This document shows, one piece after another, positions 1,770-38,777 of a stretch of 64,000 nt of DNA. The number at the start of each line of letters is the position of its first letter. The first letter of the stretch is position 1. The notes under the pieces are model-generated. The model made no database searches. It saw nothing but the letters and a program-made list of their open reading frames with translations, and was not told the origin of the DNA. The translations under genes were made by a program, and so were the position numbers. The stretch is taken from positions 1 to 64,000 of the IMG/VR virus record IMGVR_UViG_3300021387_000109, one strand, 5' to 3'. The DNA is from a virus. Taxonomy: Duplodnaviria; Caudoviricetes.

Positions 1770-4700
1770 TTAATCTTCATCCATAGCCCAACTAAGGTAT
1801 TGCTGATTATAGTAAAGTGTATCAGGAGCATATGTACCATTAATAGAAAGCATATCTTCTACATAAGTACTTACAGAGGCTGTACAGGATAAAGGTATTT
1901 CAGTTGTAGTTGCAAAACTTAAAAAGTTATCTACTGATAATGATCCCATAGATTCAGGGAACATTGTTAATAATCTTCCTATACTTGCTTGCATCTTTGC
2001 TACATATTCAGCATTTACAGTAGATGTTGTTTGTGCCTTAAGAGTATTAAGAACATCCATAGCACTTTGATAAGCATTATTAAACTCGTCAAAGTCACTT
2101 TTAAGTCTTGCTAATTTTCTAGCATATTTGGCTTCTTGAGACTGATTAACATACTCCATAACAGAGTTCATGTTAAGAAGTCTTTTACTAATAAGACCAC
2201 TAACTTGTTCAAAGAAAGTTGTATCTTGCATAACACCATAGTTGATGTTTGCTAGTCCACCTAAAAGTTCTTCGCCTTGAACAATATTTTCTTCTGTGTA
2301 ATAGGCATGAGAAAGTTCTTGTAAAAGTTTGTCTTCAGCAGAAGTAAATGCTTCAGTTAAAAGTTTAGTACCACCTACAGAAACTAAGGTAGAAATACCT
2401 GCTATTGCACCTTGGGTCAAACCTGCTCTAAGAGCATCTTTAAAGGAACCACCATTAATAAGAGAACTACCTAAACCTTGAGCCAAACCAGATAAAGCCA
2501 TTCCTCCTGCTAAAGCACCTACAGCCATAGGATTATTTGCAATAGCTTGCATGGTTTGTCCCATAGTGTCCATGCCAATTTTTACACTATCAGAGATACC
2601 TAAGAAAAATCCATCTGCTGAATCATAAGCACCTTGTATGGCAGAATTCATATTAGAAGCAGTAGAACCTTCTACACCGCTTACTAAGTCACCAGCAAAA
2701 TAAAATGCTTGCTGACCAATATAAGTAGAAATACCTGAAACAATACCCATTCCTAAAGCCTTGGAGAGACTTCCTGTTTGAGCATAAGTTTCACAAGCAC
2801 TAACATAACCTACTACAAAAGGTAATGCATATGGAGCAAATACAGCAACAAGGATAAAAGCTACAATTTTAATAATTGAGTAGATCCAAGCTCCAATCTT
2901 TTCTCCGAAAATTGCTCCTAGAACCTTTTTAGCTAGATTTAATACTTTTGTGCCTACTGTAACAGCCACTAAGACTGTGCCTACAACCATAAGAGCATTA
3001 CCAACAGCAGGCCACCAAAATCTTATAACTGCACCAACAGCCTGAAAAACGAATCCAACAAACTTAAATACACCTCTTTGATACCATCTTTTCTTATAGG
3101 TTACTTGAACCCAGCAGTTGCAAATTAAGAAAAGACCACCATTGGTAATATCCATTTGAATCCTTGCTCCTACTTCATTGTAGGTATTTAATTCAAATGG
3201 AACTATGAATGGAGAAGTAGCATCTGGTAAACCGGTACCATATTTAAAGGTTAATTTAAGCCATTTAGCTGGATTTGCTGCTCTAAAGTCATTAGCAACT
3301 TGTTCTTCAGGGGAGAGAATTTCATGGTCCAGGAATCTAAAGATTCTCTTCCAAGACCAACCTTCCCTATATTTCTTTACCTTTGCTATTTCATCATAAT
3401 AAAGTTGGTCATAAGCAAAGTCATTGGTAAAGTCATGGGTAACTGAAGATACTTGTGAGTTATCAGTTATTGCTTCATATGCAGTAGTAATAATGGATTT
3501 ACCTGCATAGATATGATTAGTTAATTCTAGGCAAACATAGAGAGTAAATCTCCAACGATCTTCAGATTCTTGATGACAGAATAGAGTAAAGGTAAATGGA
3601 ATTGAATGTTCTTCTTCATGATATGAGACTACACTTGTTTGAGTATCTTCATCCCAATGAGTAATAACATTACCTTCAGCATCTGTATCTGGTTCCATAG
3701 TAGTCCATGTATATACAAAACTACCAGTCAGAACTCCATAATCATTTACCTTAGCATCCGGTCTGAATTTACCATTGGCTTCAAAATACTCAGACATTGC
3801 CCAATGGTAGTCATAGTTTAAGTTAGAACTGGCACAGGTAATATTAAGGTGATGGTGAAAGGAAGATCCAATATCTCCTCTTCTGAACCAGGATTTCTTA
3901 CCTCCCTCATTGATGTGCCATTTATGTACTGTATTTTCAACAAAGGCACCAAAAAAGTTACTTCCTACATAAGTAGATCTTGGATTCCAAACTGTTAAAG
4001 GATCTTCACCTCTGGATAAGGCTTCATTAATATGAAGATTGAGGAAGAATGTATAGATATATTGAAGATCTGATTGATTGCTTGAGTTTAAAGTGACTCC
4101 ATGAAGCAATGTCATGTAGTCTATATCACCCAAAGAACCTTGAATATTACTTGTTAGAGTATTCTTAAGCGCACTATATGGATCAGCCCTATTTTTAAGA
4201 CTATCATAAATTTCTAGGAATCTTAGAGTATTATTAATCCTAATTGCTTTATCCCCTGAATACCAAGCAGTATTAGTTCTAATAGGTATTACAGGAAAGA
4301 ATGTTCCAGCAGCAACAGTACCACTATTGGCAATAATAGAATCAAGATAAGGTATTCCTGAACCTTCTTGATAATCCATATAGCCATAGTAATCTTTATA
4401 AACAGTATAGTGAATAACTACAGTTTTACCATCTACTATAGTTACTTCATCTTTTTCTGTAACAGTTAGATAAGAGTATCCAATCTCTAGGAATCTGCTG
4501 TTAGGTGTATATGTAGGCAATGCTCCTTGAATGATCCAGGTAGAAGAATCTGGATATTCTTCTTTCTGGTTCTCAGGGATTCTAGTAAATGTGGCTTTAA
4601 TGCTTGAATCAGTAGGATAAGAGATTGTATAGGCATATTCATCAGGTTGATATATCCATGCCTCTTTACCCTGTTGAGTTGCTAAATGTCTGATCCAAGC

Positions 4701-27404: not shown

Positions 27405-28065
27405 TCACTAAATCCTGTTCAATTACCTCCTTGGTTGTTGCTCCTGCCTTAATCAACTCCTGTTGCTTCTTGGCAAGTTCAACCAAGGCTTTCTTCATAT
27501 CTTCTATACCAGAATCCTTTCTCATGTCAATATTAACTAGAGGTGCTACAGCATCAGGCTTCTTTAAATGATTGAGAATACTATCAGCTGCCATTGCTCT
27601 TACTCTTTCACTCTTGGCATTAGCCATTAACTCAGCCTGAGTATTAATAGCTTTCTGATAAATATCCTGATTAAGCACCCAGGTAGGAACCAGAGTCTGT
27701 TCAAGGATAAGATTAACTAACTTACCTTTATTGTATGCTGCTACATAAGCAGCCTGATCCTTTGCACTAACCCCTCTTACCAAGAAGTTCTGATACCTAT
27801 CCGGAAAAGTCTTGATGTAACTTTCCTGATTGCTGAATCCCATTAACTTGTAAGAGACATACTTAATGGCATTGAGATATTCATTAGCATCAAACTTACC
27901 TTCCTGAAGAATGTGCGTATATCCAATGAAGTTCTTCTTGATCTCTTCTGCTTCTACTGGATCAGATGCAACATTATTCAATTTATCCAATAGTTCCTGA
28001 GTAGCGCATCTTCTTAAATTTTTAGGAAGTGCTTTTTCTAATAACGGCAAAGTAATCTGTTCCAT
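27385..28065 (-). CDS. N4 gp69-like protein (putative terminase small subunit)
   Basis: YLNAIKYVSYKLMG...YVAAYNKGKLVNLILEQTLVP...AADSILNHLK. Confidence 0.8.
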   Translation of the reverse strand: MEQITLPLLEKALPKNLRRCATQELLDKLNNVASDPVEAEEIKKNFIGYTHILQEGKFDANEYLNAIKYVSYKLMGFSNQESYIKTFPDRYQNFLVRGVSAKDQAAYVAAYNKGKLVNLILEQTLVPTWVLNQDIYQKAINTQAELMANAKSERVRAMAADSILNHLKKPDAVAPLVNIDMRKDSGIEDMKKALVELAKKQQELIKAGATTKEVIEQDLVIEENDN

Positions 28066-28435
28066 ATGAATCCTTTTAGATAAATATAGTAGATTATATG
28101 CATTTTTTATAAAAATTCATAAAAAGGGTTCCTGTAAATAATTTGAACCAGAAAAGAAAAGATTTTTAAAAATCTACTATATCCTCCTGAAAGCCTCTAG
28201 GAGCCTTTGAGTACCCTTTGCAATAGGGTTACTAGGGCTAACCTCATTTGGTTCAATGGGGACCCTTTTTAAGCGATTTTAGAGCATATATGAGAAAGGA
28301 ATAAAGGAAGGATAGATACGAATTGTTTTTTACATAATGAGAGGGGTAGATACGAATTATTTTTGATGGTAGGAGAGAGGTGTAATACCAGGGGGGCTTG
28401 CCCCCCAATAAATCAACTATCCCCCCCCCTCTTTT
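28066..28435. other. Divergent late/early junction: probable joined genome termini
   Basis: Strand switch between terminase genes and first early promoter, as in N4 genome order; ORF-free. Confidence 0.6.
28313..28358 (+). repeat. 12-bp direct repeat TAGATACGAATT x2
   Basis: Copies at 28313-28324 and 28347-28358, each followed by a T-run. Confidence 0.8.
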
Positions 28436-28454
28436 GGACTGTCGTCCTTAATTG
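28436..28454 (+). promoter_or_regulatory. vRNAP-type hairpin promoter P1
   Basis: GGAC-TGTC-GTCC-TTAATT-G; +1 G predicted at 28454. Confidence 0.75.
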
Positions 28455-28484
28455 ACTATTATCCTTTACTCATGGAGGTACATC

Positions 28485-28673
28485 ATGGATAACTATGGCC
28501 TTTCTCAGATCATTTCTTATCAGCTTGCGGAAATCCGTCAGGAGTTGCGTGAGCAGAGCGAGACTGAAGAACGGAACTGGCTCGTAGAAGAGCAAGAGCG
28601 CTTAGCAGGGATTCTGTGGACTTTGCACAGTGAGAACAAGGATCTCAAGGCTAAGAAGGAAGAAGACGACTAA
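28485..28673 (+). CDS. Early hypothetical protein
   Basis: RBS GGAGGT then ATG at 28485 (MDNYGLS...), downstream of P1, followed by terminator. Confidence 0.7.
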   Translation: MDNYGLSQIISYQLAEIRQELREQSETEERNWLVEEQERLAGILWTLHSENKDLKAKKEEDD

Positions 28674-28679
28674 CCTTCA

Positions 28680-28722
28680 AAGGAGAAGGAACATTTAATA
28701 ATGTTCCTTTCTCCTTTTTTTT
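28680..28722 (+). terminator. Intrinsic terminator
   Basis: AGGAGAAGGAACATT-TAAT-AATGTTCCTTTCTCCT then T run. Confidence 0.8.
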
Positions 28723-28794
28723 CTTTATTTATTTCTTTAACACTCTTAACACATATACACATACACACATACACACTCAACCATACTCATTATT

Positions 28795-28814
28795 AGTCCT
28801 GTCGGACTTAATTG
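28795..28814 (+). promoter_or_regulatory. vRNAP-type hairpin promoter P2
   Basis: AGTCC-TGTC-GGACT-TAATT-G. Confidence 0.85.
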
Positions 28815-28840
28815 ACATTAACCTTTCTAAGGAGATTACT

Positions 28841-29053
28841 ATGGGTTTCTTCAAAGGCGATATCACCAAGACTCTTAAGAACGCTTCTAAGGCTTGGGAG
28901 ATCAAGACAAGAGAGTGGTGTATTGAAACTAAAGATCAAGCACTACTTGATTTAGCAGAACATCGAAAGGATCTTGCAGAAAGAAAGCAAGAGTTAGGAG
29001 TAGATGAAAATGCTTGGAAGGCATTACAGAAGGAATTGGAGGACTTCAAATGA
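28841..29053 (+). CDS. Early hypothetical protein
   Basis: RBS AAGGAG, 70 aa, terminator at 29064-29100. Confidence 0.75.
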   Translation: MGFFKGDITKTLKNASKAWEIKTREWCIETKDQALLDLAEHRKDLAERKQELGVDENAWKALQKELEDFK

Positions 29054-29063
29054 CCTAAAATAA

Positions 29064-29100
29064 ATAAAAGAGTACTTAATGTACTCTTTTATTTTTTATT
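29064..29100 (+). terminator. Intrinsic terminator
   Basis: ATAAAAGAGTAC-TTAAT-GTACTCTTTTAT then T run. Confidence 0.75.
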
Positions 29101-29301
29101 TACTTCTTTTTTATGGTTACACCCTTATTATACTGATAGTATATATATAAGGAAGAAGAAAGTCAAGAGAAAGATACATATTAATATTAGGTAAAAGTAT
29201 GTAGATTTTATTTATACTTACTTTATATTTACTTACTTCTTATATCTTCCTTATAACTTAAAGAGGTAATAACTACTAAAGTGGTTATTTATAGTTTCAC
29301 T

Positions 29302-29322
29302 AAGTTCTGACGAACTTAATTG
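29302..29322 (+). promoter_or_regulatory. vRNAP-type hairpin promoter P3
   Basis: AAGTTC-TGAC-GAACTT-AATT-G. Confidence 0.85.
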
Positions 29323-29364
29323 AAAGAGAGAATTCCTCTCTCTTAACAACTCTAGGAGGCTTCA

Positions 29365-29628
29365 ATGCTTGAAAAGTTTATCAACCAAGAAGGACTTCGT
29401 GGCTATCGTGTAGAAGAGGCCAATGGCTTCTACTTCACTACTATCGAAGGGGACGAAATGTCTGATGTAGATGTAACAGTCTACGCCTTCAGTGCAGAAT
29501 ACATCCTTGATCGCATCACTCCGATGCCCTTCAAGGAGCAGGCTAAGCGACTGTACAATGAGTACAAGAACTCATTCCTGTTTAACAACATGCATGCCAA
29601 CCTGTCTTTGAATAATGTTCTTTATTAG
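29365..29628 (+). CDS. Early hypothetical protein
   Basis: RBS AGGAGG, 87 aa, terminator at about 29643-29678. Confidence 0.75.
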   Translation: MLEKFINQEGLRGYRVEEANGFYFTTIEGDEMSDVDVTVYAFSAEYILDRITPMPFKEQAKRLYNEYKNSFLFNNMHANLSLNNVLY

Positions 29629-29679
29629 GTTGGCAAATATCTGACCCATCATCATTTTGGTGTTGGGTCTTTTTTTTCT

Positions 29680-29700
29680 AAGTCCTGACGGACTTAATAG
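29680..29700 (+). promoter_or_regulatory. vRNAP-type hairpin promoter P4
   Basis: AAGTCC-TGAC-GGACTT-AATA-G. Confidence 0.85.
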
Positions 29701-29725
29701 GATCAACACACAAGGAGGATACATC

Positions 29726-29947
29726 ATGGTTCCTATGGATATCAATGCTTACAAGGCTCTTGATGCTGAATACACCAAGGTGTTTGGTGAATTGGAAAGC
29801 ATCTATTACCTTGAAGTTCTGCCCTTTGGCAAGGCAGATAATGAAGCCGAATATAGTAGGCTTCAGAGTCGTCTTTCTGAGATTTCTCGCACTATGGATA
29901 AGTGGAGAAGTCTCATTGACGAAACTGAGCAAATTCTCAAGAAGTAA
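29726..29947 (+). CDS. Early hypothetical protein
   Basis: RBS AAGGAGG then MVPMDINAYK..., in frame with track ORF 29657-29947. Confidence 0.7.
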   Translation: MVPMDINAYKALDAEYTKVFGELESIYYLEVLPFGKADNEAEYSRLQSRLSEISRTMDKWRSLIDETEQILKK

Positions 29948-29994
29948 AAGATTTGAACCAGTGGCTACTTTGACCATTGGTTCATTTCCCTATT

Positions 29995-30014
29995 AGCCCT
30001 GTCGGGCTTAATTG
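29995..30014 (+). promoter_or_regulatory. vRNAP-type hairpin promoter P5
   Basis: AGCCC-TGTC-GGGCT-TAATT-G. Confidence 0.85.
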
Positions 30015-30132
30015 AGCGCTTACTCCGATTAACCCTTAACCGACCAATGATTAACCCTCTTCGCCTGCTCGATTCTAGAAAGAGCAGAGACCCTCTACAG
30101 ACAAGGCCAGTCTGTAGGGGGTTTTATTTTTT
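30014..30132 (+). ncRNA. Candidate early small RNA (P5 to terminator)
   Basis: Promoter and strong terminator (30090-30132) enclose ~115 nt with no SD-led ORF. Confidence 0.55.
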
Positions 30133-30137
30133 CTCTA

Positions 30138-30157
30138 AGTCCTGACGGACTCAATTG
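30138..30157 (+). promoter_or_regulatory. vRNAP-type hairpin promoter P6
   Basis: AGTCC-TGAC-GGACT-CAATT-G. Confidence 0.85.
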
Positions 30158-30179
30158 ACATTTACTTTTGGAGGTTATC

Positions 30180-30590
30180 ATGTCTTATCGTCTTTGTGTT
30201 GCTGGTTCTCGTAACTTCAACAACGTTCAACTCGCTGAAGAGGTTCTGAGCCAAGTGTTCAACTTCATTGCCAAGAAGCATGGTGATGCCATCACCATTA
30301 TCTCTGGAGGTGCCAAGGGCGCTGACTCCGTTGGAGAGTTGGTGGCTCATAAGCACCACTACGACATTGAACGCTATCTTCCCGATTGGGATAGGTATGG
30401 CAAGAGTGCTGGTTACAAGCGTAATCAGTCGATGTGTGCAGCCAGTAATGGCTGTGTGGTGTTCTGGGATGGTTCCAGTAGAGGGAGTCATCACATGATC
30501 GACATCTGCCGTAAGGCAGGTAAGCCGATCATGGTGGTTGACATGAACGGAAGTGTCATGGACGTGTCCAAGATTCCGTTCCTGTCGTGA
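30180..30590 (+). CDS. SLOG-superfamily protein (DUF2493/YspA-like)
   Basis: VAGSRNF, IISGGAKGADS, SAGYKRNQSM, VFWDGSSRGSHHMI. Confidence 0.85.
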   Translation: MSYRLCVAGSRNFNNVQLAEEVLSQVFNFIAKKHGDAITIISGGAKGADSVGELVAHKHHYDIERYLPDWDRYGKSAGYKRNQSMCAASNGCVVFWDGSSRGSHHMIDICRKAGKPIMVVDMNGSVMDVSKIPFLS

Positions 30591-30596
30591 AGAGTT

Positions 30597-30637
30597 AGGA
30601 GCCAGAGCATGTGGTGTGCTCTGGTTCCTGCTTTTTT
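30597..30637 (+). terminator. Intrinsic terminator
   Basis: AGGAGCCAGAGCA/TGCTCTGGTTCCT then T run. Confidence 0.75.
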
Positions 30638-30652
30638 AATAGGTAAATAGTC

Positions 30653-31060
30653 ATGAAGTTTAGAGATATTTATTGGTTCTTGAGCAATTTCTATCCTTGC
30701 AGGATTACTTTCAATGGACATACATATTTATGTGCTGAAGCGGCATATCAAGCACAGAAATGTCCTGAAAGAGCCATAGAATTTATTAGTCTGAATGGTC
30801 TTCAGGCCAAAAGATTGGGTAGGCATGTTGCAATGGCTAAAGACTTTAATGAGCACAAGGTATACATCATGTATCAGGTGCTTTATTACAAGTTCACTCA
30901 GAATCCTGCTTTAAAAGATAAATTGCTTGGTACTCATGATCTATATCTGCAAGAGGACAATACATGGCATGACACCTATTGGGGTGTTTGCAATGGTATT
31001 GGACAAAATGTGCTTGGCAGATTGCTCATGTGTGTTCGAGACGATTTAAAACACATCTAA
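30653..31060 (+). CDS. NADAR (YbiA-like) family protein
   Basis: FLSNFYP, AEAAYQAQK, KFTQNPALKDKLLGT, LQEDN..DTYWG...GQNVLGRLLM. Confidence 0.92.
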   Translation: MKFRDIYWFLSNFYPCRITFNGHTYLCAEAAYQAQKCPERAIEFISLNGLQAKRLGRHVAMAKDFNEHKVYIMYQVLYYKFTQNPALKDKLLGTHDLYLQEDNTWHDTYWGVCNGIGQNVLGRLLMCVRDDLKHI

Positions 31061-31069
31061 TTCCTATAT

Positions 31070-31088
31070 GCCCTGGCGGGCTTATATG
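31070..31088 (+). promoter_or_regulatory. vRNAP-type hairpin promoter P7
   Basis: GCCC-TGGC-GGGC-TTATAT-G. Confidence 0.75.
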
Positions 31089-31115
31089 GCAAAACTAACC
31101 CAAAAGGAGACAATC

Positions 31116-31631
31116 ATGCGTGATTCCAACGCTATCCAGATGCCTGTTCCCACTTCCACTGTTTCCGTTCCCACCACCACCTCTAACAAGAAGTTGACCC
31201 AGAAATGGATTAACTTCGGCATCGTTTACGACAAGAACAACCTTGAAACCTCTGATGCAGGATTCTGTGCTGCTGGGTACGGAACTCCTGCGGATGACCT
31301 TGAGGCTCTTCGCAAGAAACTTGTTAGAGGTACGAAGCAGAGCAGAGCAGTCTACAACGGACTGGTGAACATGCATCAGTACTATACCAATCTTCTTAAG
31401 GAAGGTGGTCAGTCTGAATATCAGATTATCGGGTCTCTTACTCCCGAATCTGAAAGAAAGGCTGCTGTTGAAGAAATTCTCAACAATAACCACATTTCTG
31501 AAGAACTCAAGGCTCAGATCTTGAGTGCGGCATTCCCTGAAGGTCCGAAGTGGGCTATTCAGTATCACAGACAAGGGATCAAACAGGAATCTGAGGATTC
31601 TTCGTTTGTTATTCCTACCAATCGTCTTTAA
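31116..31631 (+). CDS. N4 gp2-like ssDNA-binding transcription cofactor, paralogue 1
   Basis: KLTQKWINFGIV...FCAAGYGTPADD resembles gp2 as recalled (KAQFWLNIGY...FISLPTGIPLD); RBS AGGAG at 31105. Confidence 0.5.
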   Translation: MRDSNAIQMPVPTSTVSVPTTTSNKKLTQKWINFGIVYDKNNLETSDAGFCAAGYGTPADDLEALRKKLVRGTKQSRAVYNGLVNMHQYYTNLLKEGGQSEYQIIGSLTPESERKAAVEEILNNNHISEELKAQILSAAFPEGPKWAIQYHRQGIKQESEDSSFVIPTNRL

Positions 31632-31642
31632 AAAGGAGCAAT

Positions 31643-33814
31643 ATGCTTAAGGAAATTTTCGAAAGCATGAAGGCAAGTGATTCCCTTCAAGAGGTGCAGG
31701 TCAAGAACGAACAGACCTACGCCAATGTTAATTACTTGCCCTTCGCTGAAGAGGCTCTTTGGAAGAACAATCCGATGCTGAAGGACTACATTAAGTCCAT
31801 CAGCAATGGAGAAACTGAAGAAAAGTTCTTCAACAAACTGGTTCTTCAGATGGCACTTCAGAAGTGCGCTGACCTCAATACTCTCTGGGGTATCATGAGG
31901 ACAGGTTATTCTGAAAACAAGAACCAGTGGGTTCTTGACCTCATCAAGAGAGGTCTTGAAGCGAATCTCATGAGCCTGTCCAGCAATGGCAAGTTCATGT
32001 ACCGCTATGCTATCGGTGAAGAGGAAGAACGTGTTCTTGATGCGTTCTTCTATCCTCTGCCCTCTGTTGTGCCCATGAAGAAACTTAAGAGCAATTTTGA
32101 TACCGGTTATCAGACTCTCAAGGGTCATGGACTGGTGTTGAACAGCACTGACCTTACTAAAGATCAGGATATCTGCCTTGATGTTCTCAACAATTTCCAG
32201 TCCATGACTTTCAAAGTCAATGAGACTGTGTTGAACAATGTTAATCCCGCTTGGGATTTCGTTAGCACTCAGAAAGCAACTGAGAGTTACGAAACCTACA
32301 AGAGCAGGGTTGACCAGTTCGTGAAGTTTGAAGAGCAGTCTAAGGCTGTTCTTGAGGCACTCAAAGGACTTCCGCTTCATCTCACCGCAGAGTGGGACAA
32401 GCGTGGAAGGCTCTACGACATGGGATATCACTTCCACATCCAGTCCAAGGAATGGACTAAAGCCGCTGTAGACTTCTACATTGGCTTGCCCATCCTGAAC
32501 CAGATTCATGAAGCCAAGGGTTTCAAGGGACAGCAGTTCTCTGACATGGATTACCTGCGCATTGACATTGCAGGCTCTTTCGGTCTTGACAAGAAGACTT
32601 GGAAAGAACGTATTGCATGGACAATGCAGCATGAAGAAGCAGGTGATCTTCTGTCTAAGGAACTCCTGTCTCAGGCTGAATCCCTTCCGCTGTACATGGC
32701 TGGTGTTCAGGCTCTAATGGATGCCAAGGCAGGCAAAGAGGTTCACTATGCAGTTAACCTCGATGCAACTGCTTCTGGTACTCAGATTCTTGGTACCCTG
32801 CTTGGTGATGAGCAGGCCATGATGATCTGCAACGTACTTCCTGTTGCTGATCAGAGTGGTGAAGTGATGCGTCAAGATTCGTATACCATCATTCACAAGA
32901 GCGTAATGCAACTCTTGGGTGGAGCGAATGTCATGACGTACTTTGATCCAGACCTTAATGGAATGGGTCAACGTGCCATGCCTGTATCCAGAGCACATGC
33001 CAAGTGTGCGGTGATGCGTTCCTTCTATGGATCTGAACTGATCATTGATCAGGTCTATGGAGAGGATTCTCCTGCATCTCGGGCATTCTGTCAGGCAATG
33101 GAGATTCATGCTCCGTATGCCTGGGCATTCAACAGTGCCATGCTCGATGCCTGGGACCCTCAGGCAACTGAGTATAACTGGACGATGCCAGATGGCTTCG
33201 AGGTGCATATCCCTGTTGAAGGTCAAGTTGCTGTTGACCTGATGTGGGGTGATACGCCTGTCACGCTCACTTATGTCAAGAGTGGCATCACCAAGAAGAA
33301 GGGACGTGCTCTTAGTGCAAACTATACGCACTCCTTCGATGCTCTGGTTCTCAGAGAGATGTATCGCCGTTGCCATTACAATCAAGGCATGGTGAACTAC
33401 GTCAATGGTGTGCTTGATGGAAAGATCACCAAGGGTAATGCAACTTTGGAACAGAAGGCTCTTTGTGCAAGACTTGCAATTCTTGCCAAAGAGAGTGGGT
33501 TCCTTAGTGCAAGAATCCTTGAGTGTATCAATCCTGATACCATGTCCATTCTCACTGGACTTGAAAGCAAGATCAAAGATCTCATTGCATCTCTGCCCTC
33601 TGAGCCGTTTGAGATCATGAGCATCCACGATTGCTTCAGGTGCCTGCCTCGCTACGGCAATGACGTGCGGTATCAGTACACGAAACTCCTGTCCGAACTG
33701 AACAAGAGCAAGTGTGCTCGATTCGTCTGTGCCCAGATCAGCCCCAGACTCGTTATCAGTGATCCTGTTGACGTATCTGAGGAAATCCTTGAAGCCAATT
33801 ACGCTTTGTCGTAA
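31643..33814 (+). CDS. Single-chain T7-like RNA polymerase = fused N4 RNAPII subunits gp15+gp16
   Basis: gp15-like YPLPSVVP, DICLDVLN, WDKRGRLY..GYH; gp16-like DYLRIDIAGSFGLDK; motifs A LDATASG, B KCAVMRSFYGS, C SIHDCF. Confidence 0.9.
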   Translation: MLKEIFESMKASDSLQEVQVKNEQTYANVNYLPFAEEALWKNNPMLKDYIKSISNGETEEKFFNKLVLQMALQKCADLNTLWGIMRTGYSENKNQWVLDLIKRGLEANLMSLSSNGKFMYRYAIGEEEERVLDAFFYPLPSVVPMKKLKSNFDTGYQTLKGHGLVLNSTDLTKDQDICLDVLNNFQSMTFKVNETVLNNVNPAWDFVSTQKATESYETYKSRVDQFVKFEEQSKAVLEALKGLPLHLTAEWDKRGRLYDMGYHFHIQSKEWTKAAVDFYIGLPILNQIHEAKGFKGQQFSDMDYLRIDIAGSFGLDKKTWKERIAWTMQHEEAGDLLSKELLSQAESLPLYMAGVQALMDAKAGKEVHYAVNLDATASGTQILGTLLGDEQAMMICNVLPVADQSGEVMRQDSYTIIHKSVMQLLGGANVMTYFDPDLNGMGQRAMPVSRAHAKCAVMRSFYGSELIIDQVYGEDSPASRAFCQAMEIHAPYAWAFNSAMLDAWDPQATEYNWTMPDGFEVHIPVEGQVAVDLMWGDTPVTLTYVKSGITKKKGRALSANYTHSFDALVLREMYRRCHYNQGMVNYVNGVLDGKITKGNATLEQKALCARLAILAKESGFLSARILECINPDTMSILTGLESKIKDLIASLPSEPFEIMSIHDCFRCLPRYGNDVRYQYTKLLSELNKSKCARFVCAQISPRLVISDPVDVSEEILEANYALS

Positions 33815-33862: not shown

Positions 33863-34025
33863 CTTCCAGATTTCTAAAAGATTTCGCAGTCTTGGGTTGG
33901 AATCTATTTTTCTTTCAGATTTCTTTGCCGCTTCGCGGCATTTTGGCAATAGTCACTTTCAACCGATTTCGCAGCTTTGGAACGGGAAGTGATTTTGCTT
34001 CTCAAACTTAAAGGAGATTTTTATA

Positions 34026-34510
34026 TGCGTACCGATGCACAGATTAACGAAGCGATGGCTACTCTTCAGGCAGTTTTCGGCAAGCCTGCTGTTCCTGCGA
34101 CCGCACCTATGACAGTCACTGAAAAGAAGGCATCTCAGTACTGGGCGCATCTTGGTTTTATTACGAACCTTGATCTGCTTCAGGAACATAACATCAAGGG
34201 TTTGACCTATCTCTTTGAGAGTGGTTTCCCTGTTGATGGTATTAAGGACAAGCTTGAGAACTTCTCAACCAATGAAGAAGCCGTTGAGTATAACGAGCAG
34301 ATTGGTCTGAAGAACGGAATCCGAGCTGATATTATTGCAGCTATGGCTGATCTTGAGTGTGGTGACTTCAAGGCTGTCGCACTTACGGATGATCCTGCTA
34401 ACGGAGATCCCATTCTTGTGATTCGTAGGCTTGATCCGAACAACAAGAGAGCTGAGATTAATCTCAAGAAGACTCTGAGTATGCGTACTCAGGCTCGCAA
34501 GACCTTCTAG
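34026..34510 (+). CDS. N4 gp2-like ssDNA-binding transcription cofactor, paralogue 2
   Basis: KKASQYWAHLGF, SGFPVDG, KNGIRADIIAAMADLECGD, LVIRRL follow the gp2 motif order; RBS AAGGAG. Confidence 0.6.
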
Positions 34511-37804: not shown

Positions 37805-38777
37805 AGCAAAACTCGTTCCCTTTCTCCAGAGTTCACCTGGAATGGGAAAGAGTAGTCTCATTAAGGAAATTGCCAAGGAATGGAATCTTGAACTAATTGA
37901 TGTTCGACTTTCCACTATGGAACCCTGTGATTTAAACGGCTTACCAACATTTGATATGGATGGTAAAGCTACATTCCATCCTTATTCCATGTATCCTCTT
38001 GAAGGCATGACACCTCCTGAAGGTAAAGATGGTTGGCTGTTGTTCCTTGATGAATTTAATGCTGCACCTAGAGCAGTTCAGGCAGCAGCCTATAGAGTGG
38101 TGTTGGATCATGAAATTGGACAATACAAACTTCATCCAAACTGTCTTGTTGCCTGTGCTGGTAATTTGTCTACTGATAATGCCATCACTACTCGATTGAG
38201 TACAGCAATGCTTTCAAGACTTATCCATATTCATATGGAAGTTAGTCTTAAGGATTGGATGGAGGCAGTAGCAATTCCTCAGGCATATGATGAGAGAGTT
38301 ATTGCTTTCTTGAATATGTATCCTGACAAATTGATGCAGTTTGATCCAGAAAGAGAAGATGAAACATTCTCTTGTCCACGAACATGGGAATTCACTAATA
38401 GACTAATTAAGCCTATTAAGAATCTCACTGAGACTGATGCAATTCTTCTATCTGGAACAATTACACCAGATATTGCTACTGAATTTGTTCAGTTTACCAA
38501 GGTCTATAAGCACCTTGTTACTTTGAAGGAAATTGTTGATAAGGATGGAGATTGTCCTGTTCCTGATGATATGGCTACAAGATATGCCATCTTGGTTCAT
38601 CTTATGATGAATGTTAAGAAAGATGATTTTGAACCAGTATTGAAATATGTGGATAAGTTCGATTCTTCAATGAAGATTGTTTTCGTCAGAAACATCATCA
38701 AGAGAATGCCTGAATTTAGAACACATCCAGCAATGGTTCAGATGATCATTAGGGAAGGCAAGTATCTCCTTGGATAG
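37752..38777 (+). CDS. MoxR-like AAA+ ATPase (N4 gp24-like)
   Basis: SSPGMGKS Walker A, LFLDEF Walker B, VACAGN, AMLSRLIH. Confidence 0.9.
   Translation: MLTLTPSKTKEALIKCFKAKLVPFLQSSPGMGKSSLIKEIAKEWNLELIDVRLSTMEPCDLNGLPTFDMDGKATFHPYSMYPLEGMTPPEGKDGWLLFLDEFNAAPRAVQAAAYRVVLDHEIGQYKLHPNCLVACAGNLSTDNAITTRLSTAMLSRLIHIHMEVSLKDWMEAVAIPQAYDERVIAFLNMYPDKLMQFDPEREDETFSCPRTWEFTNRLIKPIKNLTETDAILLSGTITPDIATEFVQFTKVYKHLVTLKEIVDKDGDCPVPDDMATRYAILVHLMMNVKKDDFEPVLKYVDKFDSSMKIVFVRNIIKRMPEFRTHPAMVQMIIREGKYLLG

What the first reader, a model, noticed from the sequence alone, without database searches (positions are those of the whole stretch)
28436..31088. Seven virion-RNAP hairpin promoters with GNCA tetraloops instead of N4 triloops
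Copies at 28436, 28795, 29302, 29680, 29995, 30138 and 31070. The stems covary (GGAC/GTCC, AGTCC/GGACT, AAGTTC/GAACTT, AGCCC/GGGCT, GCCC/GGGC), so structure rather than sequence is conserved. On the template strand the loop is always C-[G(A/T/C)CA]-G. In all seven, a G lies exactly 11 nt downstream of the loop G, matching N4 vRNAP geometry (-11G, +1G). N4 promoters have 3-nt loops, so this vRNAP appears to read a different DNA hairpin class.
Basis: partly seen in the sequence, partly recalled or inferred. Interest (0 to 1): 0.8.

Follow-up and report, generated by a model that had tools for sequence, protein, structure and literature searches.

The report
Tetraloop hairpin promoters, N4-like phage
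An uncultured gut phage of the N4 type places a small DNA hairpin with a four-base loop (N4 itself uses three bases) in front of each early gene, most likely as start signals for the RNA polymerase it injects; this is a real variant of a known mechanism, not a new one.

Summary
The window is the first 64 kb of a complete 76-kb N4-like phage genome that encodes a 4007-aa virion RNA polymerase.

**The hairpins**
- Seven + strand hairpins (4-7 bp stem, C-TGNC-G) lie at 28436-31081.
- The whole genome holds 8 such hairpins, against 0.4 expected by chance.
- All seven sit between a terminator and an SD-led early gene, or directly behind a gene's stop codon.
- An invariant G lies 11 nt after the loop.

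**Relatives**
- A relative with 83% identical RNAPII has seven copies with different, compensating stems.
- A 58% relative keeps only GC-TGAC-GC (template GCGTCAGC) plus the G at +11.

**Reading**
- They are best read as vRNAP early promoters, with confidence about 0.8. There is no transcript-end evidence.

- The N4 base equivalent to the loop G is -10, so the spacing is one nt longer than in N4.
- GNCA belongs to the same sheared G·A mini-hairpin family as N4's GRA triloop. d(GCGACAGC) melts at 72 °C.
- An eighth hairpin, an N4-type triloop, lies at 33926.
- Similar 4-nt-loop hairpins occur in the early regions of cultured Rhizobium N4-like phages, apparently unreported.

The scan had already noted this stretch in another reading of the same genome.

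Verdict: new variant of a known kind, moderate interest.

The parts
28436..28447 (+). P1 hairpin GGAC-TGTC-GTCC (template loop GACA). Predicted +1 G at 28454; drives the 62-aa ORF 28485-28673.
   Evidence: template-strand DNA fold -3.1 kcal/mol, z -3.0
28795..28808 (+). P2 hairpin AGTCC-TGTC-GGACT. Predicted +1 G at 28814; drives ORF 28841-29053 (70 aa).
   Evidence: terminator 28685-28710 upstream
29301..29318 (+). P3 hairpin TAAGTTC-TGAC-GAACTTA (template loop GTCA). Predicted +1 G at 29322; drives ORF 29365-29628 (87 aa).
   Evidence: terminator 29062-29094 upstream
29679..29696 (+). P4 hairpin TAAGTCC-TGAC-GGACTTA. Predicted +1 G at 29700; drives ORF 29726-29947 (73 aa).
   Evidence: the hairpin starts directly after the T-run of a stem-loop at about 29644-29678 (read)
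29995..30008 (+). P5 hairpin AGCCC-TGTC-GGGCT. Predicted +1 G at 30014, followed by about 110 nt without an SD-led ORF and then terminator 30087-30125: a candidate small early RNA.
   Evidence: no Rfam match
30138..30151 (+). P6 hairpin AGTCC-TGAC-GGACT. Predicted +1 G at 30157; drives ORF 30180-30590 (136 aa, YAcAr/SLOG, DprA-like).
31070..31081 (+). P7 hairpin GCCC-TGGC-GGGC (template loop GCCA). Predicted +1 G at 31088; drives the gp2-like ORF 31116-31631 and the fused RNAPII gene 31643-33814.
   Evidence: The ORF is 55% identical to the L028 ortholog, which carries a weak Pfam Phage_N4_Gp2 hit. RNAPII.
33926..33940 (+). P8, an N4-type hairpin TGCCGC-TTC-GCGGCA (template loop GAA) followed by TTTTGG. 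A G lies at 33945, again 11 nt after the loop. It sits behind the RNAPII terminator and ahead of ORF 34025-34510. Which polymerase reads it is open.
   Evidence: -7.2 kcal/mol; conserved at L025 12281-12297
31643..33814 (+). Single-chain RNAPII (N4 gp15 and gp16 homologs in one 723-aa ORF). It lies downstream of P7, so P7 must be read by a polymerase that exists before RNAPII is made.
   Evidence: phrog_2166 on residues 8-425, phrog_2051 on 297-723; PF00940
63894..64000 (-). 3' tip of the virion RNA polymerase gene. The full gene runs from genome 63891 to 75914, encodes 4007 aa, and lies mostly outside the window.
   Evidence: N- and C-terminal domains match N4 gp50, E 1.5e-79. Catalytic motifs T/DxxGR, A, B and C are present.
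28066..28435 (.). Divergent junction between the late (-) and early (+) genes. It holds a 2x repeat GATAGATACGAATT..TTTTT, a G6CTTGC6 hairpin and a C9 run directly before P1; probably near the physical left end of the genome.
   Evidence: the same elements precede the first early promoter in L028

Best explanation
The seven hairpins, and perhaps the eighth, are early promoters for the phage's injected virion RNA polymerase.

Proposed mechanism, by analogy with N4. On entry, negative supercoiling extrudes each inverted repeat as a cruciform. The template-strand arm forms a stable hairpin whose loop 5'-G-N-C-A-3' is closed by C:G and can form a sheared G·A pair. The non-template loop T-G-N-C cannot form that pair. 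The vRNAP binds the template hairpin, reading the invariant loop G, loop C and A, and an invariant stem G four positions 3' of the loop on the coding strand (C18 in alignment A1). It starts RNA at the invariant G 11 nt downstream of the loop. Each transcript carries a 23-43 nt leader with a strong SD, one small early gene, and ends at an intrinsic terminator. The last unit makes the gp2-like cofactor and RNAPII, which then take over.

Shown here: the sequence motif, its non-random occurrence, stem covariation, conserved spacing, genomic context, and the presence of a vRNAP with catalytic motifs. Inferred: extrusion, binding by vRNAP, the exact start site, and the sheared pair.
For: 1. The phage is N4-like. 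Major capsid protein is 62% identical to KP8/N4; portal, TerL, primase and RNAPII are present; the 4007-aa vRNAP has N4 gp50-like N- and C-terminal domains and polymerase motifs.
2. There are 8 hairpins against 0.375 expected. Seven are clustered on the coding strand of the early region, and the other is a weak A/T-rich 4-bp stem on the other strand at 38681-38692.
3. Five of the seven lie 4-210 nt behind a stem-loop with a T-run and 34-57 nt ahead of an SD-led ATG (P5 has no ORF). There is no room for another promoter at P4, P5, P6 or P7.
4. Sigma-70-like sites are not enriched (8 against 11.2 expected).
5. The 83% relative L025 has seven copies with other stems (AGGAC, AAGCAC, AGTAC, AGTGC, AGCCC, AGTTC, AAGCCT) and the same loop and tail.
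6. The 58% relative L027 keeps GC-TGAC-GC four times, each behind a terminator, with G again at +11.
7. N4 P1-P3 have the same grammar: stem, C-TYC-G, stem, T-rich spacer, GG.
8. Template loops GACA/GTCA/GCCA are of the GNNA mini-hairpin type; d(GCGACAGC) has Tm 72 °C (PMC13037366). The RNA or non-template reading UGNC/TGNC belongs to no known stable loop class.
9. All eight template-strand oligos fold into the predicted hairpin as their minimum-energy structure.
Against: - No 5'-end data. The only RNA-library material is assembled contigs, which cannot show starts.
- The polymerase domain is so diverged from N4 that the hairpin-contacting residues (W129, K114/R119, D901/R904) cannot be recognised. 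Recognition of a hairpin is therefore inferred from the DNA, not from the enzyme.
- The spacing differs from N4 by 1 nt, and the central loop base that N4 needs as a purine is here A, T or C.
- One L025 copy closes with T:A instead of C:G.
- A close relative (L028) has no hairpins at all at the same places, so a hairpin is not obligatory in this clade.
Confidence: 0.8

Rival explanations
1. The hairpins are promoters for the phage's second polymerase (RNAPII plus the gp2-like cofactor), as proposed for the GC-rich 3-4-nt-loop hairpins at LUZ7 middle promoters.
For: LUZ7 middle promoters are hairpins with 3-4 nt loops about 15 nt upstream of a G start (PMC9163698). RNAPII here is an unusual single-chain form.
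Against: P7 lies upstream of the gp2-like and RNAPII genes themselves, so it must fire before RNAPII exists. All seven share one motif, which implies one reader. None occurs in the 30-kb middle region. This reading remains possible for the eighth, triloop hairpin at 33926 only.
Confidence: 0.06
2. The hairpins act in RNA: 5' stem-loops that stabilise mRNAs, or processing sites in a long early transcript made from one upstream promoter.
For: They lie in 5' leaders or intergenic spacers. RNA-library contig 33918-34084 includes the P8 hairpin, although DNA carry-over cannot be excluded.
Against: Strong intrinsic terminators stand directly before most copies. UGNC is not a stable RNA tetraloop class, whereas the complementary DNA loop GNCA is. 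An invariant G at a fixed 11-nt distance and an invariant stem base are expected of a polymerase site, not of a stabiliser. L027 keeps only a 2-bp stem, useless in RNA but sufficient for a DNA mini-hairpin.
Confidence: 0.06
3. They are host sigma-70 promoters (the tail often reads TTGAC) or operators for a dimeric DNA-binding protein.
For: TTGACA follows the hairpin at 28795 and 30138. The consensus scan finds a weak match at 28435-28462.
Against: No -10 element lies at the right distance, and one placed there would remove the SD from the mRNA. In L025 the tail is mostly TTGG, not TTGAC. Stems covary while sequence drifts, which is the opposite of an operator. The loop is asymmetric. Sigma-70-like sites are below shuffle expectation.
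Confidence: 0.03

Closest known systems
Coliphage N4 early promoters P1, P2, P3 (vRNAP hairpin promoters)
   Same: - Template-strand hairpin with a 5-7 bp stem of variable, covarying sequence.
- Loop begins with G and ends with A, closed by C:G.
- T/A-rich single-stranded spacer, then a G start.
- Located at the leading end of the genome ahead of the gp2 and RNAPII genes.
- A giant virion RNAP is encoded (PMC4496689).
   Different: - The loop has 4 nt (G-N-C-A) instead of 3 (G-R-A).
- The base after the loop G is free (A/T/C) instead of an obligatory purine, and an extra invariant C follows it.
- The start G is 11 rather than 10 nt after the loop.
- The invariant stem G lies one position further from the loop than N4's -8G would by simple counting.
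- There are 7 promoters, one per gene, instead of 3.
- The polymerase domain is barely alignable with N4's.
LUZ7 early promoters (mapped by ONT-cappable-seq)
   Same: Nine early promoters, several per early region. They are hairpins with a stem of at least 4 bp, and the preferred start is G at a distance that differs from N4 (13-14 nt from the hairpin centre; here 12.5) (PMC9163698).
   Different: LUZ7 loops have 3 nt. I confirmed C-TAC-G and C-TTC-G hairpins on LUZ7.
Mini-hairpin DNA, d(GCGNNAGC) and d(GCGNAGC) (Hirao and co-workers)
   Same: The template strand of L027 reads exactly GCGTCAGC. Window copies read CC-GACA-GG, CC-GTCA-GG, CC-GCCA-GG and similar. d(GCGACAGC) has a measured Tm of 72 °C, and the review already lists the N4 promoter GCGGAGC as a biological mini-hairpin (PMC13037366).
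   Different: Only GACA of the three loops was measured. Some window copies have A:T or T:A as the second pair, which was not among the stable combinations tested.
Early-region hairpins of cultured Rhizobium phages RHph_N38 and RHEph24 (Schitoviridae); found here, not found in the literature searched
   Same: 4-nt loops C-T(T/A)AC-G (template GTAA/GTTA, also GNNA), three per genome, ahead of early genes. One shows a compensatory stem change between the two phages. The tail TATGGCG is the same as behind the GAA triloop hairpins of Sinorhizobium phage ort11.
   Different: The loop sequence differs (GTWA, not GNCA). GG lies 10 nt after the loop as in N4, not 11. Their vRNAPs are ordinary Schitoviridae enzymes.

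Membership tests
N4-type vRNAP hairpin promoter | Genome encodes a giant virion-packaged single-subunit RNAP | tested here: met
   A 4007-aa ORF. Its N- and C-terminal domains match N4 gp50 (E 1.5e-79). Motifs T/DxxGR, A, B and C are present. Packaging into virions was not testable.
N4-type vRNAP hairpin promoter | Sits at the leading (early) end, co-oriented with early genes, upstream of the gp2 and RNAPII genes | tested here: met
N4-type vRNAP hairpin promoter | Inverted repeat giving a 5-7 bp stem whose variable positions keep pairing | tested here: met
   Stems of 4-7 bp. Two pairs show 3-4 pair types; 0 of 500 shuffles reach the observed score. A 58% relative keeps only 2 bp.
N4-type vRNAP hairpin promoter | 3-nt loop with a central purine (-11 A/G) | tested here: not met
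   The loop has 4 nt in all 7 window copies and all 7 L025 copies. The position after the loop G is A, T or C on the template strand. Only P8 at 33926 has a 3-nt GAA loop.
N4-type vRNAP hairpin promoter | Template loop starts with G and ends with A (sheared G·A), closed by C:G | tested here: met
   Met at sequence level in 17 of 18 aligned copies. The sheared pair itself is not testable with these tools.
N4-type vRNAP hairpin promoter | Conserved G in the downstream stem arm of the template (-8G) and +1C at a fixed distance (10 nt after the loop G) | tested here: inconclusive
   An invariant stem base (column 18) and an invariant G (column 25) exist. The start candidate is 11 nt after the loop G, against 10 in N4 P1-P3.
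N4-type vRNAP hairpin promoter | Rifampicin-resistant, gyrase- and SSB-dependent initiation on the extruded or single-stranded template | not testable with these tools
   No cultured host. Only assembled RNA-library contigs were available.
N4 mini-vRNAP promoter-recognition module | W129 / K114 / R119 (-11 element), K267/K268 (intercalating hairpin), D901/R904 (specificity loop) | tested here: inconclusive
   MAFFT alignment with N4 gp50 and 24 other vRNAPs.
- The 'LNIV' helix after W129 is recognisable, but W aligns with S (a Y is adjacent). This position also varies among other Schitoviridae (W/F/Y/L/S).
- The DDRMR specificity-loop motif is absent.
- About 146 extra residues lie where N4 has the intercalating hairpin (anchors).
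The alignment is unreliable at this divergence.
Sheared G·A DNA mini-hairpin (GCGNNAGC type) | 5'-(G/C)C-GNNA-G(C/G)-3' on one strand | tested here: met
   L027 template reads GCGTCAGC four times. The window has CC-GNCA-GG in 4 of 7 copies and other second pairs in 3. Thermal stability was not measured.

The most novel reading that the evidence does not exclude
This small gut or rumen phage clade carries a deep, previously unsampled vRNAP lineage. Motif A reads DxDG instead of the ExDG used as a census filter, and only 2 relatives appear among 1.8 billion representative proteins. Its promoter code may have drifted through four architectures within 40-83% RNAPII identity:
- GAA triloop hairpin (L029, and P8 here);
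- long-stem GNCA tetraloop hairpin (window, L025);
- 2-bp GCGTCAGC mini-hairpin (L027);
- a hairpin-less linear 14-mer, TTCATTTNANGTKG (L028).
If all four are read by the cognate vRNAPs, the clade would provide natural orthogonal polymerase/promoter pairs on single-stranded DNA. It would also show a hairpin-dependent RNAP evolving into a sequence-dependent one.
Probability: 0.3. Interest if true: 0.75.

Novelty: new variant of a known kind. Interest (0 to 1): 0.55.

Why it matters
N4 vRNAP is the textbook case of a polymerase that reads DNA shape (an extruded hairpin), and every described relative has been reported with a 3-nt loop.

A natural set of promoters with a 4-nt loop, a shifted start distance, a free second loop base and an invariant third one says which parts of that recognition are flexible. 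A polymerase domain almost unalignable with N4 says the same from the enzyme side.

Three practical consequences follow:
- It gives a ready-made second polymerase/hairpin pair for transcription from single-stranded DNA.
- Early promoters of metagenomic Schitoviridae should be searched with GNA and GNNA loops, and with 2-bp stems.
- vRNAP motif filters such as ExDG miss this lineage.

Tried and rejected
- **blastn of 28000-32000 against phage records:** no match.
- **The search for related loci with RNAPII in IMG/VR:** nothing.
- **Two IMG/VR pattern scans** (GTCCTGNCGGACTNAAT and AGNNCTGNCGNNCTNAATTG): 22 and 93 single-match loci, none with several hairpins, so chance level.
- **Word-indexed search with the vRNAP polymerase region:** only the protein itself.
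- **tblastn of that region against phages:** only a roughly 200-aa stretch at 22-30% identity in 25 of about 480 Schitoviridae records.
- **Residue-level comparison with N4's hairpin-contacting residues:** alignment too weak to decide. No structure prediction was run.
- **RNA evidence:** two metatranscriptome runs hold pieces of the stretch, but only as assembled contigs. X4 covers 28469-28670, 32829-32986 and 33918-34084; an X7 contig starts at 33954. These show neither starts nor strand, DNA carry-over is possible, and parts without cover mean nothing.
- **Sigma-70 reading of the TTGAC tail:** rejected.
- **Nearest-neighbour folding of the four L027 motifs:** no common structure. The mini-hairpin reading there rests on the GCGNNAGC literature alone.
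- **Search for a repeated middle-promoter motif in 33800-64000:** nothing convincing.
- **Literature searches for tetraloop or 4-nt-loop vRNAP promoters, or for Rhizobium N4-like hairpin promoters:** no description found in the held library. Subscription journals are not covered, so prior description cannot be excluded.


Full report
**What the window is.** The 64-kb window is the first part of a 76,007-bp viral record with terminal repeats, rated complete. It is an N4-like podovirus.
- The major capsid protein is about 62% identical to those of Klebsiella phage KP8 and coliphage N4.
- Portal, large terminase, primase, DNA polymerase and an N4-type RNAPII are present.
- A 4007-aa ORF on the - strand (genome 63891-75914) matches N4 gp50 in its N- and C-terminal domains.
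- Late genes run leftward from 28065 and early and middle genes run rightward from 28485. The finding therefore sits at the start of the early region, as N4's P1-P3 do.

**The observation.** On the + strand each is a perfect 4-7 bp stem around TGTC, TGAC or TGGC, with C:G closing the loop. The template-strand loops are therefore GACA, GTCA and GCCA.
- Genome-wide there are eight C-TGNC-G hairpins with a stem of at least 4 bp, against 0.375 +/- 0.64 in 200 dinucleotide shuffles. Seven lie in 2.65 kb on one strand. The eighth is a weak A/T stem on the other strand.
- A G follows the last loop base by exactly 11 nt in all seven.
- As single-stranded DNA, every template-strand 29-mer folds into the expected hairpin as its minimum-energy structure.

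**Context.** The early region is a string of small cassettes: hairpin, 23-43 nt leader with a strong SD, a 62-136-aa ORF, and an intrinsic terminator.
- P4, P5 and P6 begin within 4-13 nt of the preceding terminator stem-loop or its T-run, and P7 begins 10 nt after the stop of the preceding ORF. No other promoter fits there.
- P5 is followed by about 110 nt without an SD-led ORF and then a 16-bp terminator.
- P7 drives a gp2-like protein and the RNAPII gene. The gp2-like protein is 55% identical to an ortholog with a weak Pfam N4_Gp2 hit.
- RNAPII therefore cannot be the enzyme that reads P7, and sigma-70-like sites are not enriched.

**Relatives.** RNAPII homologs led to contigs of related phages.
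- L025 (83% identical RNAPII) has seven hairpins at equivalent places. The loops are TGTC or TGGC and the tail is YAATTGR, but the stems are different: AGGAC, AAGCAC, AGTAC, AGTGC, AGCCC, AGTTC and AAGCCT.
- On 18 aligned copies, the two inner stem pairs show 3-4 pair types, 24 cells change on both sides against 8.5 expected, and no shuffle of 500 reaches the observed covariation.
- The invariant columns are loop T, G and C, a stem C four positions after the loop, and the G at +11.
- L027 (58%) has four terminator-preceded copies of tcgCTGACGctc. Only two G:C pairs flank the same loop, and G again lies at +11. On the template strand this reads GCGTCAGC.
- L029 (40%) has three C-TTC-G triloop hairpins ahead of its early ORFs.
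- L028 (55%) has no hairpins. It carries nine copies of a linear motif, TTCATTTNANGTKG, at the same kind of place.

**The eighth hairpin.** A note from another reading of this genome mentioned eight promoters, which led me to look further downstream. At 33926-33940 I found TGCCGC-TTC-GCGGCA followed by TTTTGG. This is an N4-type GAA triloop behind the RNAPII terminator, and it is conserved in L025. Its G also lies 11 nt after the loop, but L025 has A at that position. It could be a second substrate of the vRNAP or an RNAPII (middle) promoter of the LUZ7 kind. I cannot tell which.

**Comparison with N4.** I read N4's own promoters from its genome. They are GTTGC-TTC-GCAAC-TTATGG, AAGAAGC-TCC-GCTTCTT-TTGG and AAGCTGC-TCC-GCAGCTT-TTGG.
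- The grammar is the same, but the start G is 10 nt after the last loop base.
- In N4 numbering the loop G next to the closing C is -10G. It pairs in sheared fashion with -12A, while the central -11 purine stacks on W129 (PMC4496689).
The structurally equivalent base is -10G, so this phage's spacing is one nt longer, not identical.
- The base that N4 requires to be a purine is free here (A/T/C), and an extra invariant C follows it.

**Is the loop a different class?** Only partly.
- GCGNNAGC and GCGNAGC are the two forms of the extraordinarily stable DNA mini-hairpin with a sheared G·A pair. d(GCGACAGC) melts at 72 °C, and the N4 promoter is already cited as a biological example (PMC13037366).
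- The tetraloop therefore keeps the physical principle that lets N4 hairpins extrude and resist SSB. It also explains the strand asymmetry, because the non-template loop TGNC has no G·A.
- Published relatives (LUZ7/LIT1/PEV2, CB1-like) are described with 3-nt loops.
- My small survey confirmed triloops in LUZ7, Stenotrophomonas C121, Acinetobacter XC38, DSS3phi2 and Sinorhizobium ort11.
- The same survey found three C-T(T/A)AC-G 4-nt-loop hairpins in the early regions of each of the cultured Rhizobium phages RHph_N38 and RHEph24. One has a compensatory change between the two phages.
- I found no paper describing these. Four-base loops are thus not unique to this phage, but the GNCA consensus and the 11-nt spacing are.

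**The enzyme.** The polymerase domain is very far from all known vRNAPs.
- tblastn finds only a roughly 200-aa stretch at 22-30% identity in 25 phage records.
- An exhaustive HMMER search of 1.8 billion representatives finds two real relatives, at 34% and 28%.
- Motifs T/DxxGR, A, B and C align and keep their catalytic residues. Motif A reads DFDG rather than the ExDG used as a census filter for N4-like viruses (PMC10654107).
- The DDRMR specificity-loop motif is absent, and about 146 extra residues lie where N4 has its intercalating hairpin.
- The W129 position is not decidable.
- A changed recognition module is consistent with a changed promoter, but the alignment is too weak to count as evidence of how the hairpin is read.

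**Expression.** Two metatranscriptome runs contain pieces of the stretch, but only as assembled contigs, which cannot show starts, strand or level. I do not count them.
- DNA contigs of a relative join P3 to P6 and skip the NADAR ORF. This suggests that the promoter-bounded cassettes are exchanged as modules.
- The DNA is held in full by an animal gut metagenome run, probably the source of the record. Relatives occur in a sheep gut run that I laid on the stretch.

**Verdict.**
- The interpretation as vRNAP early promoters is the best explanation (about 0.8), but it rests on context and comparison, not on transcript ends.
- The claim of N4-identical geometry is wrong by one nucleotide.
- The claim of a different hairpin class is better put as a GNNA variant of the same sheared G·A mini-hairpin promoter.
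- Novelty: new variant of a known kind.
- The more interesting lead is the clade-level diversity of early promoter architecture, including a hairpin-less relative, coupled to a deep vRNAP lineage.

Noticed in passing
L028:3919-8097 (+), nine sites: A relative with 55% identical RNAPII and the same gene order has no hairpin promoters. A linear motif TTCATTTNANGTKG stands between terminator and SD-led early ORF nine times. The first copy follows the same G6..C6 hairpin and C9 run that precede P1 in the window. This is possibly a hairpin-independent early promoter in an N4-like phage.
   Followed up: partly
L132:1-14, 349-368, 2795-2810; L134:67-80, 457-476, 3432-3447: Cultured Rhizobium phages RHph_N38 and RHEph24 (Schitoviridae) have three early-region hairpins with 4-nt loops C-T(T/A)AC-G (template GTAA/GTTA). 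One shows a compensatory stem change between the two phages. Sinorhizobium phage ort11 (L133:491, 3804, 4495) has GAA triloops with the same TATGG tail. I found no published description.
   Followed up: partly
window:30014-30130: P5 is followed by about 110 nt with no SD-led ORF and then a 16-bp terminator (30087-30125). This is a candidate small early RNA. It has no Rfam match, and the scan noted it before.
   Followed up: partly
window:31643-33814: RNAPII is a single 723-aa chain covering both N4 gp15-like and gp16-like parts (phrog_2166 and phrog_2051). All six longer homologs found are also single-chain, 723-740 aa.
   Followed up: partly
window:28300-28435: Just before P1 lie two copies of GATAGATACGAATT(G/A)TTTTT, a G6CTTGC6 hairpin and a run of nine C. 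The same elements occur before the first early promoter of L028. They are likely genome-end, packaging or injection-related sequence.
   Followed up: no
window:29348-30164 and 30635-31064: DNA contigs of a roughly 85-90% relative (run X6) join P3 directly to P6, with 9 shared letters at the joint. They also replace the NADAR ORF by 31 other letters. Early cassettes appear to be gained and lost at the promoters.
   Followed up: no
window:30653-31060: The NADAR-domain ORF follows terminator 30596-30630 and has no hairpin promoter of its own. How it is expressed is unclear.
   Followed up: no
window:34025-34510: The ORF behind the triloop hairpin P8 hits the same PHROG (phrog_4099) as the gp2-like ORF behind P7. 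It is possibly a second gp2-like cofactor.
   Followed up: no
L032:95-12115 (-), genome 63891-75914: The vRNAP has 4007 aa, longer than the 2842-3820 aa quoted for reference N4-like phages. Its motif A reads DFDG, so the ExDGxxxG filter used in a published census of N4-like viruses would exclude this lineage.
   Followed up: partly
window:33870-33990: Around P8 the spacer carries two copies each of GATTTCGCAG (33880, 33965) and CAGATTTCT. Their role is unknown.
   Followed up: partly
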